From NCBI RefSeq assembly GCF_056746865.1, contig NZ_CM163382.1: a stretch of DNA of 64,000 nucleotides; one strand, 5' to 3'. How positions within the stretch are numbered: position 1 is the stretch's first letter; every line of letters starts with the position of its first letter. Position numbers: made by a program. Positions 18,001-24,000 of this stretch are shown piece after piece.

Positions 18001-21000
18001 TCTGTCTTAGTCTCAGGACATCAGCCGCAATACGCTGACTGCCAGACCAGAACAGGCCGTCCAGCGCAGTCACCAGCAATCCCGCCTCCAGCGCATACTT
18101 CAGCCGTTCACGGGGCACTTTCACTTCCCGGGCAATCTGCTGATAGGGTGATGATGTATTTTCATTCCCAACCATCCGGCGAATACGGTGAGACAGATGA
18201 TACCGGAATGCATCCGGCACACCGGAAAGACTGGCCTTCAGGCTGTACACGCAGCCAAATCGCTTATCGTTGAACACCACATTTTTCTGGCTGATATCCC
18301 ATTCTTCTCGAAGCGCAGCAATCAGCTGTGGCGTGCGGGTTAAAAGCAGACGAAAAGGCAGTTCAAAACTGGTGACGTAATCCACATTCAGCAGGGCAAT
18401 ACGCAGCCGTTCTTCTGGTCCGGCCTCTGTCTGCCGACACTCCTCCAGAACATCCTGCCACTGCTGGCAAAGGCGTGGAGATTCATTCAGTTCTGTAAAA
18501 CAATATTTATCCGCAAGATAGTCAATTTGTGCAGGCATACTGAAGAGAATTCCGTATAAAGATTCAGCAGACAAAACTTTATCAGTCAATAAGAATCAAC
18601 GGAAGCACAGAAGGTTCATACGTCCATCACCAACTGATTGTTGTCATAACGGGTAACATAAAGGACTGAACGACTGTTTGAACCGCCCCGGGTTTCCTGG
18701 AGAGTGTTTTATCTGTGAACTCAGGCTGCCAGATCATCGTTTCCGATGGAAGCATAATAAGCTTTTTCTGCTTCTGCCGGAGGAGTATGGCCCAGCCTTC
18801 CCAGCAATCGTCGATTGTTATACCAGTCCACCCACGTTAGTGTGGCCAGTTCCACTTCTGCACGGTTTTTCCAGCTCTTACGGTGTATTACCTCCGCTTT
18901 GTAAAGACCATTGATGCTCTCAGCCATCGCGTTGTCATACGAGTCGCCTGTACTCCCTGTTGATGCCAGTAATCCGGCTTCTTTTAGTCGCTCCGTATAG
19001 GCCAGTGACACATACTGAGAGCCTTTATCGCTGTGATGGATGGTGCCAGACGGACGACGGGCCCACAACGCCTGCTCCAGCGCATCCAGAACGAATGTCG
19101 TTTCCATAGACGATGAGACCCGCCACCCCACGATGTATCCGGCAAACACATCAATGATAAACGCCACATAGACGAAGCCCTGCCATGTGCTGACGTAAGT
19201 AAAATCAGCCACCCACAGCTGGTCAGGTCGTTCTGCCACGAACTGACGGTTTACGCGGTCGCCTGCGGCAACGGCTTTCCGGCTGATGGTCGTACGGACC
19301 TTTTTACCCCGGAGAACACCGGCAAGTCCCATAACCGCCATGAGACGTGCCACTGTACATCTGGCCACCCTGATTCCTTCCCGTAACAACTGACGCCAGA
19401 CTTTACGCACACCGTACACCTGATGATTTTCATCGTATACGCGCTGTATCTCTCTCTTCAGCCAGTCGTCGTGCTGCGCACGGGCACTGCGTTTATCCGG
19501 ATGATGTCGCTGTTGCTGACAATGGTAATACGTTGACGGGGCAATATGCAGTTCGCTGCATACCGGTCCGACCCCGTACTGCTCACGCAGCTTATCCAGC
19601 AGTGGCATCATTTTTCCAGAGGCGGTCGAACTCCGCCTTCGCAAAATAAGCGGAAGCCTGGCGAAGGATATCGTTACTGCGGCGCAGTTCACGATTTTCA
19701 CGTTCCAGCTCTTTCAGACGCTGACGTTCAGCGCTGGTGAGCCCACCATCACCGCCCCCGGTATCCCGCTCATGCTGGCGAACCCAGACACGCAGAGTCT
19801 CCGGCGTACAGCCAATCTTTGGAGCAATGGAACAAATTGCCGCCCACTGTGAGTCATATTCATCCTGACTTTCCAGAACCATACGAATCGCCCGCTGACG
19901 GACTTCGGGGGAAAAACGAGTATTTTTAGTCATCCTGTTTACCTCTTTCTCAGGGAGTTTAGTCTCCAGGATTTCCGGGGCGGTTCAAATACTGGGCGAA
20001 GGGAGATGTTATTGCGAAGCGCGCGCCAATTGGTCAGTGGGAACCTTATTCGGAAGAGTCACTACTTGGCATCATCGTCACCAGCGTCTGTCGTATTAAA
20101 GTCGCGATGCTAAAACCTGAACCTCCCAGAGATCCCCATATCCCGCTGATGGGGGATTTTAACTAAAACTTAGCGCTATCGCTGCGTATCGTAACTATCC
20201 CGTATTACGTAGCGTAAATTATGACGCCATACGGGGAACAAATACACAGAGGAAGAAAAAGATTAGATTGGTTTTAAGGGATGTTTTTATCATAAATGGC
20301 ACTGCTAAAATTATGAGATTATCGAAGATAAAATTCTTGATCATACATAAAAGGCCTCCTGAATTAAATCAAGAGGCGTATAGTTTTTACATTACTGATG
20401 TATGTTTAATGATCTCACTGATTTTCACTTTCCTGTCCTGCGATCTTGAAAGAGTGGCAGCATCAGCAGTAGCAATCGCCGACATGGCCGCCTCACCATT
20501 GAGAAGGTCAATATAATCTTCTTCAGGTTTTGCACCACAGAGGATATTATGGAGGAATAACGTCTCCTTTCTTATTAAACTGGCAAGCCATAATGGTGTT
20601 TTTTTTCCTGGATGACCATATGCTATAGCGCCATCCATTTCTGAGGTCATATTGCCTTTCCGACGATCATCATCTTCTTCTTGTGTTTCATGGACCAAAA
20701 AATGCTTTGTCTGACCGCCAATCCTAAGTGACCCTGCTGTTTCTTGCATATCAATTTTAATAGAGCCTTTAGTTCCATTGATGATGACATAATGTTCCGG
20801 CCAGTTAAATGCACTCCCCCACTCTAAGGTTGCTAGTTTTCCTGACGGGAATTCCAAGGTCATAAATAACATATCATCTTCATTGCCAAATCCTGGACCA
20901 GAATGGGCCAAATTTCCACCAATCATAGTAACCGTCTCTGGTATTTCTCCAAGTAAATGCTGAACACAATCTAACTCATGTATATGATGATATAGATGTC

Positions 21001-24000
21001 CACCAGATTTTTCTTTCATCTTTTTCCAGGAAAGTCTCTCTTGTTTGTTTTCCCAGCCATTTCTCTTAGTATGACATGATAATATTTCGCCGATAACACC
21101 TTCTTTAATTAACTTCCGTGCATATTGAACCCCATTGAAAAAATTCATAATATGCCCGGCCATAAAGGTCACACCAGCTTCTTTACACGCTTTGACCATA
21201 TCCACACAATCTTCATAACTTAATGCAATTGGTTTTTCACAAAAAACATGCTTCTTATTCTTTGCTGCTTTAATTACTGGTTCTTTATGCAGATAATTTG
21301 GGGTGGCTACGATCACGCAATCGACTAATTTACTTGAGACTAAAGCATCCAAGCTTGACATATTGATACACTGCAATTCACGGGCAATATTTTCTCCATT
21401 TTCAGGATCGTATACACATGTAATTTTTGCATTATCATGCATATTCATAAAACGAGCTAATTCAGCGCCAAAGTATCCAACACCAACAACGCCATAATTA
21501 ATCATAAAGCCTCCAATTATTTAGCCACGGATAGTTTATAAATTTTACCTGGAATATCAAAACCAACTAACAAAATTAATAAGGCAGAGAATGCAACCGT
21601 AACAATGAATAATGAAACACCTAAGCCATAATATCCTGAAATGTATGTAGCTAATACAGGTGCGGCCATTCCTCCAGTTGCCCCTAAGTTATAAATAAGA
21701 CCGGTCCCTAATCCTCTTAATTTTGTTGGAAAGTAATCATATATAAATTTTGGAACCAACCCTGCAATACCTAAATTTGTAAACATTAATCCAAAGAGAC
21801 ATAATCCTATAAGAGAAGAGTTTTTCACAGAAATAAAAAAAAGAGGACAAAGGAAAACAAATGAAGTTATTAGACCGACTACAAAGGCTTTTTTTACACC
21901 AATCTTATCACCAACAAAACCAAAAAATATTGTACCTGTCAGTGTTCCTAAACCTGCTATTGTCATCAGAGTTGAAATAACCACTGTATTAACTCCATTA
22001 TCTGCCAGGTAGGAAGGAAGTAGTCCGTTTATCGGCCAGTTTGCACCAAATAGACAAAAACAGACGAGGAAAACGATCATAGAGATTGAAAGATGTGGTT
22101 TTCTGAAGACAGACAAAAAAGTTGATTTATCCTTATATTTATCTTCAATCCACTCCTGACTTTCTGGAGCACTTTTTCTGATCCAAAGAACTAGTAAAAC
22201 TGGTAACAGGCCTATAAAAAAAGAGTTTCTCCATCCATATACTTCAGCAAACTGAGGGATTATTTGTGCCGCAATAATATTTCCAACAGAAAAACCACTT
22301 ACCAAAAAAGCACTAGCTTTAGATTGAAGATTTTTAGGCCAACTTTCTACCGCATAAGTTGAAGCACATGCATATTCACCAGACATCCCTAAGCCAACAA
22401 TAAAACGGCAAACTGCGAGCATATATAAGTTTGTAGCAATACCGCTAAGGCCTGTTCCGACTGAGTAAATGATAATTGCCCACATCATCATTGGCTTACG
22501 ACCATATTTATCAGCCATGGCACCAAAAAAACCACCTCCAATAGGTCTGGCTATGAAGGCCACTGTCCCTATTAAAGTAGCCTGAATATCCGTAATGCCA
22601 AGATCTGCTTTTATAATATGAAGAATGTAAAATATCATCATAAAATCAAAGCCATCAAATACATATCCAAGCCATGCGGAAAAAAGAGCTTTCCGTTGTG
22701 GTGGATTAACTTGTTTATACCATGCTGTTGCCATATTTGTTTCCTGTGTTATTCTAATATAGCCCTTAAAGTAAATATTAGGGAGCCTCAACAATATCCA
22801 GAAATAATTATATTGTCTTCAAATACGCCAGTACTATTGATGGTTATCAATACCTAATCAGTACAATCTTTTCCTCCATTTCTTCTTAACATATTTCACT
22901 CTATGAAAGATAAAACTGATACCCACCTACAGTTTTGGGTCACCAACAAAAAACAATGTTCGCCAGATATTCCACCACTGGCACAGTTCAACCCTGCTTC
23001 AAAAATTGACTTATTCATTGTGCTCATTTTCGTAGTCCGTTCAGGTTGAATAAAACTCCCTTAGTCAAATGAGGAAAGACTGAGAGGTTATTACTTTAGC
23101 TTACGTTATAGCTGTTTTCCTTTGCAGTATTTCCTTGCTTTTCTGTATACCTTTATACCTGTTATACCAGATCAAAAAACAAGCAATCCACATAACAAAA
23201 CGCGTTTTGTTACTGATGTCACAAATTGAGCATATTTTTGTAGCTGATAGTTTGTTACAAACACCAGAACCAAGATGCCTATTTCGTTTCAGCATCAACT
23301 GTTAAATTATCTGGTTGCCAACGAGAATACTGAGCTTTTTTGTCCCCAAGACTGACCGTCAACGCCACAATCTTTGACTGTTTGACATTGTCATGCCCGC
23401 AGGCCAGCGGATCTAAAGACATTAGACTGCTTGCATCAGCCAGTTGCGTATCTGGCTATGTCCCTTAATTGGTAAGGGTTCGAGGAACTCAACATTAACG
23501 CATTTTTCAGCGCATCACCGACAGTGTATATGAACGATTGCACTCTGACGATGGTTGATTTATTTGGTTGCGTAGGGGCTAGCTAGTCTGGTACCGGAGG
23601 CTGGATCTGAAGTACTGACCCCAGGAATAACGCCGGGCTGACTCATATTCTGACCCATTGTCAGCCCGCGTGTTTACTGCTCTAGCTCATTTCCTGTTGT
23701 CAGGCGTTCAATTCCCAACTGCAGGTTATGGCCCGGTGCACAAACACCTGACGGCAGGTATCACTTACCCGAAGAAGGTAAAGCCCTCAAGAGGCAGTAA
23801 CTCAGCCAACCTCTCCTCCGGCCACTCCGGCAGACGCGTCAGGACGTCCGTCAGCCAAGCATGTGGCTCCAGACTGCGGTTCCCAGAAGGCTCATTATCT
23901 GTGCCGCGCGGTTCCCGGCCATCAGTGAACCAGCGAACAACCAGGCCTTTCGTCCCATAACGACCAGACGGATAGCACGCTCGCAGATATTGTTGTGTGT

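What the first reader, a model, noticed from the sequence alone, without database searches (positions are those of the whole stretch)
20387..23168. nanXY (yjhBC)-like operon with a canonical NanR operator about 350 bp upstream
The transporter is a clear NanT paralogue and the downstream gene is a Gfo/Idh/MocA oxidoreductase, matching the YjhB/YjhC (NanX/NanY) pair for 2,7-anhydro-sialic acid. The triple GGTATA operator matches the nanA operator, implying NanR control of an island-borne operon. The operator is far from the start codon, and the downstream flank is IS629 copy 3, so the region has been rearranged.
Basis: partly seen in the sequence, partly recalled or inferred. Interest (0 to 1): 0.35.

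Follow-up and report, generated by a model that had tools for sequence, protein, structure and literature searches.

The report
Known E. coli nanXY operon, NanR-controlled
This stretch is the already well-studied E. coli nanXY (yjhBC) operon for using the dehydrated sialic acid 2,7-anhydro-Neu5Ac, with its known NanR repressor binding site, here carried intact on a genomic island; it is ordinary.

Summary
Window 21517-22734(-) encodes NanX, 403/405 identical to K-12 YjhB. Window 20387-21505(-) encodes NanY, 371/372 identical to K-12 YjhC (PDB 6o15). The sequence GGTATAACAGGTATAAAGGTATA at 23146-23168(-) occurs once in the window (0.01 expected). Together with a 5' GATCT, it is identical to the K-12 nanA NanR operator.

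Two details need correcting. First, the operator lies 411 nt from the real ATG (22734). Second, this long distance is not due to rearrangement. K-12 has the same spacing. The paralogous nanC region has its operator 418 nt from its ATG, and a CRP-like site sits in register in all three nan promoters.

Rearrangement affects only the flanks. IS629 copy 3 (no target duplication) cuts the K-12-like segment at 19988, downstream of a terminator-like hairpin and ythA. The IS4 and IS2 insertions of K-12 are absent. The module sits in a tRNA-Phe (pheU-side) island, not at leuX. About 21% of complete E. coli genomes carry it.

NanR control and the 2,7-anhydro-Neu5Ac function are published. Novelty: already known. 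Interest is low.

The parts
21517..22734 (-). [quoted passage not shown]
   Evidence: 403/405 identical to K-12 NanX. NCBIfam equivalog NF008963 scores 786 bits against a cut-off of 637. Pfam MFS_1. 35% identical to NanT and lacks NanT's central insertion. RefSeq annotates it as nanX.
20387..21505 (-). nanY (yjhC): NAD-dependent 2,7-anhydro-N-acetylneuraminate hydratase of the Gfo/Idh/MocA family, 372 aa
   Evidence: 371/372 identical to K-12 NanY. PDB 6o15 YjhC matches at E=8e-259 and RgNanOx 6z3b/6z3c at about 1e-159. The EKP, WKK and HHIH motifs are conserved, and the single variant K166 equals the RgNanOx residue. Pfam GFO_IDH_MocA N- and C-terminal domains.
23146..23168 (-). NanR operator, (GGTATA)3 with spacers of 3 and 2 nt: GGTATAACAGGTATAAAGGTATA
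   Evidence: Occurs once in the window against 0.01 expected. Identical, together with the preceding GATCT, to the K-12 nanA operator. The operator type was characterised by Horne 2021.
23208..23223 (-). CRP-like site TGTGAcatcagTAACA, 39 nt upstream of the operator (inferred)
   Evidence: Read from the sequence. It aligns in register with GTGA-N6-xxxCA sites 38-39 nt upstream of the nanA and nanC operators. Its function was not tested.
22735..23145 (-). 411-nt region between operator and nanX ATG (presumed long 5' leader)
   Evidence: Same length and near-identical sequence in K-12. Weakly paralogous to the nanC leader over the first ~200 nt (z 2.4-3.4), and the nanC leader is 418 nt. No unusual RNA folding, z=+0.75. 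No Rfam match. No strong sigma-70 consensus site.
20354..20377 (-). Terminator-like hairpin just after the nanY stop codon
   Evidence: Consensus scan: 9-bp stem with 5 GC pairs, followed by CTTTTATGTA.
20219..20344 (-). ythA, small protein gene (41 aa) downstream of nanY
   Evidence: RefSeq annotation of identical DNA in strain 165 and of the K-12 locus. No family match.
18679..19987 (-). IS629/IS1203 copy 3, the downstream boundary of the K-12-like segment
   Evidence: 99.8% identical to the other two copies. Inverted ends are TGAACCGCCCC. Flanks are GTT | AAT, so there is no target duplication, unlike copies 1 (ATA) and 2 (AAG). ALIL frameshift pseudoknot at 19537-19652. K-12 homology starts at 19988.
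19988..20166 (+). 5'-truncated remnant of the K-12 gene next to ythA (surface-adhesin E family), cut by IS629
   Evidence: In K-12 locus L002 the CDS spans 7922-8179, and window homology begins at L002 8001 = window 19988.
23265..23276 (.). Empty target site of the IS4 (insG) insertion present in K-12, 97 bp upstream of the operator
   Evidence: The two K-12 alignment blocks overlap by 12 bp here. The K-12 sequence diverges into IS4 at this point.

Best explanation
This is the E. coli nanXY (yjhBC) operon, the third operon of the NanR sialoregulon. NanX, a NanT-like MFS symporter, imports 2,7-anhydro-Neu5Ac and 2,3-didehydro-Neu5Ac. NanY, an NAD-dependent Gfo/Idh/MocA enzyme, converts them to Neu5Ac through a 4-keto intermediate. 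Neu5Ac then enters the core NanA-NanK-NanE pathway, which is encoded elsewhere in the genome. Transcription most likely starts within or next to the (GGTATA)3 operator at 23146-23168. In the absence of sialic acid, three NanR dimers bind there cooperatively and block RNA polymerase. Neu5Ac releases NanR. A CRP-like site 39 nt upstream probably adds catabolite control. The transcript carries a 411-nt leader before nanX and ends at a hairpin after nanY.

Shown here: the identity of the genes, the operator and its conservation, and the genomic context. Taken from the literature: NanR repression, Neu5Ac induction, and the substrates. Inferred: the exact transcription start, the CRP role, and that the leader is transcribed.
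For: Protein identity to K-12 NanX and NanY is 99.5% and 99.7%. NanX passes the NCBIfam equivalog cut-off. NanY matches PDB 6o15 and RgNanOx with the catalytic motifs conserved. The operator occurs once in the window and is identical to the nanA operator. The upstream region is paralogous to nanC's, with the same operator-to-ATG distance, and a CRP-like site is in register in nanA, nanX and nanC. The same DNA is annotated nanX/nanY in 1133 of 5426 complete E. coli genomes. In the literature, yjhBC is derepressed in nanR mutants and induced by Neu5Ac (PMC3658417). [quoted passage not shown] YjhC activity is nil in wild type and present in a nanR deletion, and both genes are needed for growth on 2,7-AN and 2,3-EN (PMC7315737). 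Growth on 2,7-anhydro-Neu5Ac needs yjhB and yjhC, and the genes were renamed nanXY (PMC7535918).
Against: nanR is not in the window, so its presence in this genome is assumed; published surveys find it in more than 99% of E. coli. No sigma-70 consensus promoter (9 or more of 12 matches) was found at the operator or in the leader, and the primary papers that mapped the promoters were not available, so the transcription start is inferred. Genomic SELEX recovered only the nanC/fimB site for NanR (PMC5934670). The two functional papers disagree on whether 2,7-anhydro-Neu5Ac alone supports growth of nanR+ cells.
Confidence: 0.95

Rival explanations
1. The operator is a relic or acts on something else. 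On this view nanXY is transcribed from an unrecognised promoter closer to the ATG, so the distant NanR site does not control it or controls it only weakly.
For: The operator is 411 nt from the start codon. No consensus promoter was detected at the operator. NanR SELEX reported only nanC/fimB as a stable target.
Against: Published genetics and transcriptomics show NanR-dependent repression of yjhBC, and YjhC activity is absent in wild type and present in a nanR deletion. No consensus promoter lies in the leader either. nanC has the same long-distance architecture and is NanR-regulated. The CRP-like site and operator are in the same register as at nanA.
Confidence: 0.04
2. The operon is present but functionally impaired in this strain because of the IS-mediated rearrangements around it. 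Possible causes are loss of a needed downstream or upstream element, or polar or antisense effects from IS629.
For: IS629 copy 3 lacks a target duplication and truncates the neighbouring gene at 19988. The segment has moved from a leuX context to a tRNA-Phe island.
Against: Both ORFs are full length with only conservative natural variants. The promoter, operator and leader are intact and lack even the IS4 that K-12 tolerates 97 bp upstream. IS629 lies 400 bp beyond the nanY stop, past a hairpin terminator and ythA. The same IS-ythA-nanY-nanX junction is conserved in many genomes.
Confidence: 0.03
3. The transporter and oxidoreductase serve a different substrate family, for example inositol or another sugar acid.
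For: The best NCBIfam hit for NanY is inositol 2-dehydrogenase, far below its cut-off (116 bits against 355), and there is no dedicated NanY model.
Against: NanY is near-identical to the biochemically characterised YjhC and about 1e-159 from RgNanOx, with the catalytic residues conserved. NanX passes its equivalog model. Mutant phenotypes are published.
Confidence: 0.01

Closest known systems
E. coli K-12 nanXY (yjhBC) operon in the KpLE2 island at leuX
   Same: Gene order nanX-nanY-ythA. Proteins 99.5% and 99.7% identical. Identical operator, 411-nt leader and upstream CRP-like site. The flanking IS66 and group II intron remnants and the phosphoethanolamine-transferase pseudogene are shared.
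   Different: K-12 has IS4 inserted 97 bp upstream of the operator and IS2 further on; both are absent here. Downstream, K-12 continues into yjhD/E-IS30-fec, whereas here IS629 cuts at 19988. The chromosomal site is a tRNA-Phe (pheU-side) island instead of leuX.
nanATEK-yhcH (nanQ) promoter and operator of E. coli
   Same: The 28-nt GATCT+(GGTATA)3 sequence is identical. A CRP-like GTGA-N6-CA site lies 38-39 nt upstream.
   Different: The nanA operator ends 32 nt before the nanA ATG, whereas the nanX operator is 411 nt from its ATG. The nanA operator is conserved at the nanR-nanA junction across many Enterobacterales. In the species-representative scan, no copy was found upstream of a true nanX.
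nanCMS regulatory region (nanC-fimB intergenic)
   Same: Paralogous from about 100 bp upstream of the operator (z 7.5) to about 200 nt downstream (z 2.4-3.4). The operator-to-ATG distance is 418 nt against 411 nt.
   Different: The third repeat of nanC is degenerate (GGTGCA). The downstream genes are a porin, a mutarotase and an esterase.
Ruminococcus gnavus RgNanOx with its SAT2 ABC transporter
   Same: NanY is a close homologue (E about 1e-159) with the same Lys/His catalytic constellation and the same reaction.
   Different: The partner transporter is an ABC system, not an MFS, and the regulation is different.

Membership tests
NanX/YjhB 2,7-anhydro-Neu5Ac MFS transporter | Orthology to the characterised E. 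coli K-12 YjhB | tested here: met
   403/405 identical over the full length. NCBIfam equivalog NF008963 scores 786 bits against a cut-off of 637.
NanX/YjhB 2,7-anhydro-Neu5Ac MFS transporter | NanT-like MFS fold without NanT's central hydrophilic insertion | tested here: met
   35% identity to NanT, with gaps opposite NanT's central insertion, about residues 240-290. Pfam MFS_1. The feature is described in PMC3658417.
NanX/YjhB 2,7-anhydro-Neu5Ac MFS transporter | Transports 2,7-anhydro-Neu5Ac / Neu5Ac2en but not Neu5Ac | not testable with these tools
   Known for the K-12 protein from mutant growth. Inferred here from 99.5% identity.
NanY/YjhC (NanOx) 2,7-anhydro-N-acetylneuraminate hydratase | Gfo/Idh/MocA two-domain fold and orthology to YjhC (PDB 6o15) | tested here: met
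   Pfam PF01408 and PF02894. 6o15 matches at E=8e-259, and 371/372 identical to K-12.
NanY/YjhC (NanOx) 2,7-anhydro-N-acetylneuraminate hydratase | Catalytic residues equivalent to RgNanOx K93, K163, H175, H176 and H178 | tested here: met
   EKP (K91), WKK (K161) and HHIH (H173, H174, H176) all align with RgNanOx. The residue list comes from PMC7535918.
NanR-regulated operon (E. coli sialoregulon) | Operator of three GGTATA direct repeats with spacers of 3 and 2 nt upstream of the operon | tested here: met
   GGTATAACAGGTATAAAGGTATA at 23146-23168(-), found once against 0.01 expected, identical to the nanA operator.
NanR-regulated operon (E. coli sialoregulon) | Operator overlaps or adjoins the promoter of the regulated operon | tested here: inconclusive
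   No consensus promoter was called. A CRP-like site in register with nanA and nanC suggests that the promoter sits at the operator. The transcription start is not mapped in the accessible literature.
NanR-regulated operon (E. coli sialoregulon) | NanR present in the genome, and expression dependent on NanR and Neu5Ac | not testable with these tools
   nanR is not in the window. Dependence is published for K-12.

The most novel reading that the evidence does not exclude
The roughly 410-nt stretch between operator and start codon has nearly the same length in nanX (411 nt) and nanC (418 nt) and is detectably paralogous over its first ~200 nt. It could be a functional second regulatory layer rather than inert spacer. 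Examples would be binding sites for further regulators, such as the NagC, OmpR or CpxR input that I recall (from memory) being reported for nanC, or leader-dependent control of translation or stability. Such a layer might explain why published reports disagree on whether 2,7-anhydro-Neu5Ac alone allows growth.
Probability: 0.12. Interest if true: 0.35.

Novelty: already known. Interest (0 to 1): 0.07.

Why it matters
It matters little as a discovery. nanXY, its NanR operator, its substrates and its patchy distribution in E. coli are all published. The locus has modest annotation value. It shows that this strain carries an intact accessory sialic-acid scavenging module, which lets E. coli cross-feed on products of intramolecular trans-sialidases from gut commensals such as R. 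gnavus. It also shows that a KpLE2-type segment can travel as part of tRNA-Phe islands. Because this copy lacks IS4 and IS2, it preserves the state of the K-12 region before those insertions.

Tried and rejected
- **Structured RNA in the leader:** the fold z-score was +0.75 and Rfam had no match there, so I rejected this.
- **Conserved small ORF in the leader:** nanX has a 43-codon ORF at 22896-23027 where nanC has only about 12 codons from the aligned ATG. It is not conserved, so I rejected it.
- **Sigma-70 promoter:** the consensus scan found no site on the minus strand at the operator or in the leader, so the promoter position remains inferred.
- **Primary papers:** I tried to read Kalivoda 2003 and 2013 and Sohanpal 2004 for mapped transcription starts. 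None is held.
- **Other species:** I scanned 100,044 species-representative genomes for the (GGTATA)3 pattern, hoping to find nanX operators elsewhere. Every enterobacterial hit with nan genes next to it was at the nanR-nanA junction, and none was upstream of a true nanX. This says nothing new about the leader.
- **Exact source genome:** no complete genome in the collection has the whole arrangement. The best matches stop at the tRNA-Phe gene.
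Full report
**Observation**

All features are on the minus strand. A 372-codon ORF lies at 20387-21505. An MFS-type ORF lies at 21517-22794 when read from a TTG. Three GGTATA hexamers lie at 23146-23151, 23154-23159 and 23163-23168. They read GGTATAACAGGTATAAAGGTATA. The spaced pattern, even allowing 3 mismatches, occurs once in the 64-kb window against 0.01 expected from shuffles.

**Identity of the genes**

- Megablast against 5,426 complete E. coli genomes gives 100% identity to strain 165 and 99.6% to K-12-type genomes. The genes there are annotated nanX (MFS transporter) and nanY (2,7-anhydro-N-acetylneuraminate hydratase), followed by ythA.
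- The annotated nanX start is the ATG at 22734, preceded by AGGAA, giving 405 aa. It is not the TTG at 22794.
- NanX is 403/405 identical to K-12 NanX. It passes the NCBIfam equivalog NF008963 with 786 bits against a cut-off of 637. It is 35% identical to NanT and has gaps where NanT has its central insertion.
- NanY is 371/372 identical to K-12 YjhC, the protein of PDB 6o15. It is about 1e-159 from R. gnavus RgNanOx (6z3b/6z3c).
- The residues that Bell et al. showed to be catalytic in RgNanOx (K93, K163, H175, H176, H178) align with K91, K161, H173, H174 and H176 here. The single difference from K-12 (K166) equals the RgNanOx residue.

**The operator and promoter region**

- The 23-nt operator plus the preceding GATCT is identical to the K-12 nanA operator. 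In the nanC operator the third repeat is GGTGCA.
- Short megablast hits of the nanX upstream region elsewhere in E. coli fall in the nanC-fimB intergenic region.
- Aligning nanX and nanC upstream DNA shows paralogy over about 100 bp upstream of the operator (65/102 identical, z 7.5). Similarity is weaker over the first ~200 nt downstream (z 2.4-3.4) and absent beyond that.
- The operator-to-ATG distance is 411 nt for nanX and 418 nt for nanC. For nanA it is 32 nt.
- A CRP-like site, TGTGAcatcagTAACA at 23223-23208, lies 39 nt upstream of the operator. It aligns in register with similar sites at nanA (38 nt) and nanC (39 nt).
- From this I infer that the promoter overlaps the operator. TATAAC inside repeat 1 is the likely -10 element, and the CRP-like site would be centred near -61.5. 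This agrees with the statement in Horne et al. that the operator lies in the promoter region and blocks transcription.
- The consensus scan called no sigma-70 site there or in the leader, so the transcription start remains inferred.
- The leader shows no unusual folding (z +0.75), no Rfam match and no conserved small ORF.

**Is the long distance a rearrangement?**

No. K-12 has the same 411-nt leader, almost base for base, as do the 1133 genomes that carry the locus at 98% identity or more. The only K-12 difference upstream is an IS4 (insG) inserted at window 23265-23276, where the two alignment blocks overlap by 12 bp. That point is 97 bp upstream of the operator and upstream of the CRP-like site. 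The window lacks this IS4, and it also lacks the K-12 IS2 near 25840. It therefore preserves the state before those insertions.

**Flanks and context**

- *Downstream junction.* K-12 homology stops exactly at 19988, where IS629/IS1203 copy 3 (18679-19987) begins. Copies 1 and 2 have 3-bp target duplications (ATA, AAG). Copy 3 has GTT on one side and AAT on the other. It therefore marks a recombination or deletion junction, and it truncates the neighbour of ythA (19988-20166).
- *Operon left intact.* A terminator-like hairpin at 20377-20354 follows nanY, and ythA (20219-20344) is intact. The operon itself is untouched.
- *Chromosomal site.* The K-12-like block (19988-26259) is embedded in an island that ends at tRNA-Phe (40671-40746). 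The island is flanked by dicD-dsbD-cutA-dcuA-aspA, which is the pheU side. In strains 165 and AR13438 the same IS-ythA-nanY-nanX module sits in a pheV island next to yqgA-speC. In K-12 it is in KpLE2 at leuX. No complete genome in the collection has the whole window arrangement.

**Distribution**

- 1133 of 5426 complete E. coli genomes (21%) carry nanXY plus the operator. The remaining genomes with a hit match only short stretches; the rows shown cover the operator region, and the two I opened lie upstream of nanC. A published survey found about 15% (PMC10088187).
- An exact scan of 100,044 species-representative genomes for the (GGTATA)3 pattern found it at the nanR-nanA junction in many Enterobacterales genera. 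It was never found upstream of a true nanX. This fits Vimr's statement that only E. coli has three NanR-controlled operons.
- nanR itself and the other nan genes are not in the window.

**Literature**

- yjhBC was identified as NanR-repressed and Neu5Ac-induced by transcriptomics, and it carries a NanR operator (PMC3658417).
[quoted passage not shown] The yjhBC operator is shown in that paper's Fig. 1 (PMC8012715).
- YjhC converts 2,7-anhydro-Neu5Ac and Neu5Ac2en to Neu5Ac. YjhB and YjhC are both needed for growth on these compounds in a nanR-deleted background. YjhC activity is nil in wild type grown on LB (PMC7315737).
- BW25113 grows on 2,7-anhydro-Neu5Ac in a way that depends on yjhB and yjhC, and the genes were renamed nanXY (PMC7535918).
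- One dissenting data set exists: genomic SELEX kept only nanC/fimB as a NanR target (PMC5934670).
- The two functional papers differ on whether nanR+ cells grow on the anhydro sugar alone.

**Verdict**

Two corrections apply: the distance is 411 nt, not 350, and the long leader is ancestral and shared with nanC rather than a product of rearrangement. The only residual open point is whether that leader has a function. Interest is low.

Noticed in passing
window 24022-24161 (+), next to 23765-23994 (-): Rfam group II intron D1-D4-4 fragment (67 bits against a gathering score of 49) beside an IS66-type transposase remnant. K-12 DNA aligns across this stretch and annotates the same transposase remnant upstream of nanX.
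   Followed up: partly
window 18679-19987, compared with 9707-11015 and 13366-14675: There are three IS629/IS1203 copies, 99.8-100% identical. Copies 1 and 2 have 3-bp target duplications (ATA, AAG). Copy 3 has none (GTT | AAT), which marks it as a recombination or deletion junction.
   Followed up: yes
window 23265-23276 and about 25838-25843: These are the empty target sites of the IS4 (insG) and IS2 insertions found in K-12. The window preserves the uninterrupted ancestral sequence of this KpLE2 segment.
   Followed up: yes
window 40671-40746 and flanks 40800-46000: The island abuts tRNA-Phe with dicD-dsbD-cutA-dcuA-aspA beyond it (pheU side). Near-identical island DNA (window 18678-40794) in the other complete genomes I opened (strains 165 and AR13438) sits at pheV (yqgA-speC). 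None of the best-matching complete genomes continues past the tRNA, so the full arrangement was not found.
   Followed up: partly
window 24576-25749 and 27721-28894: Two paralogous phosphoethanolamine-transferase genes about 91.7% identical. The first is a pseudogene, as in K-12, and the second is intact.
   Followed up: no
window 26487-27233 and 31568-39159: The invasion gene tia, plus a raffinose-type sugar cluster (porin, GH32 hydrolase, MFS transporter, alpha-galactosidase, LacI-type regulator), lie on the same island as nanXY, according to the annotation of near-identical DNA in strain 165.
   Followed up: no
window 23279-23422 (-): A 47-codon ORF annotated as a hypothetical protein (WP_000050905.1) in strain 165, just upstream of the nanX promoter region. 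It has no Pfam or NCBIfam match. The K-12 IS4 sits immediately 3' of it.
   Followed up: partly
loci L007-L095 (species-representative genomes): The exact GGTATAACAGGTATAAAGGTATA operator is conserved, base for base, at the nanR-nanA junction across many Enterobacterales genera, including Enterobacter, Rahnella, Buttiauxella, Cedecea, Lelliottia, Atlantibacter, Citrobacter, Hafnia and Trabulsiella. The only variant seen is ACA to ATA in the first spacer.
   Followed up: partly
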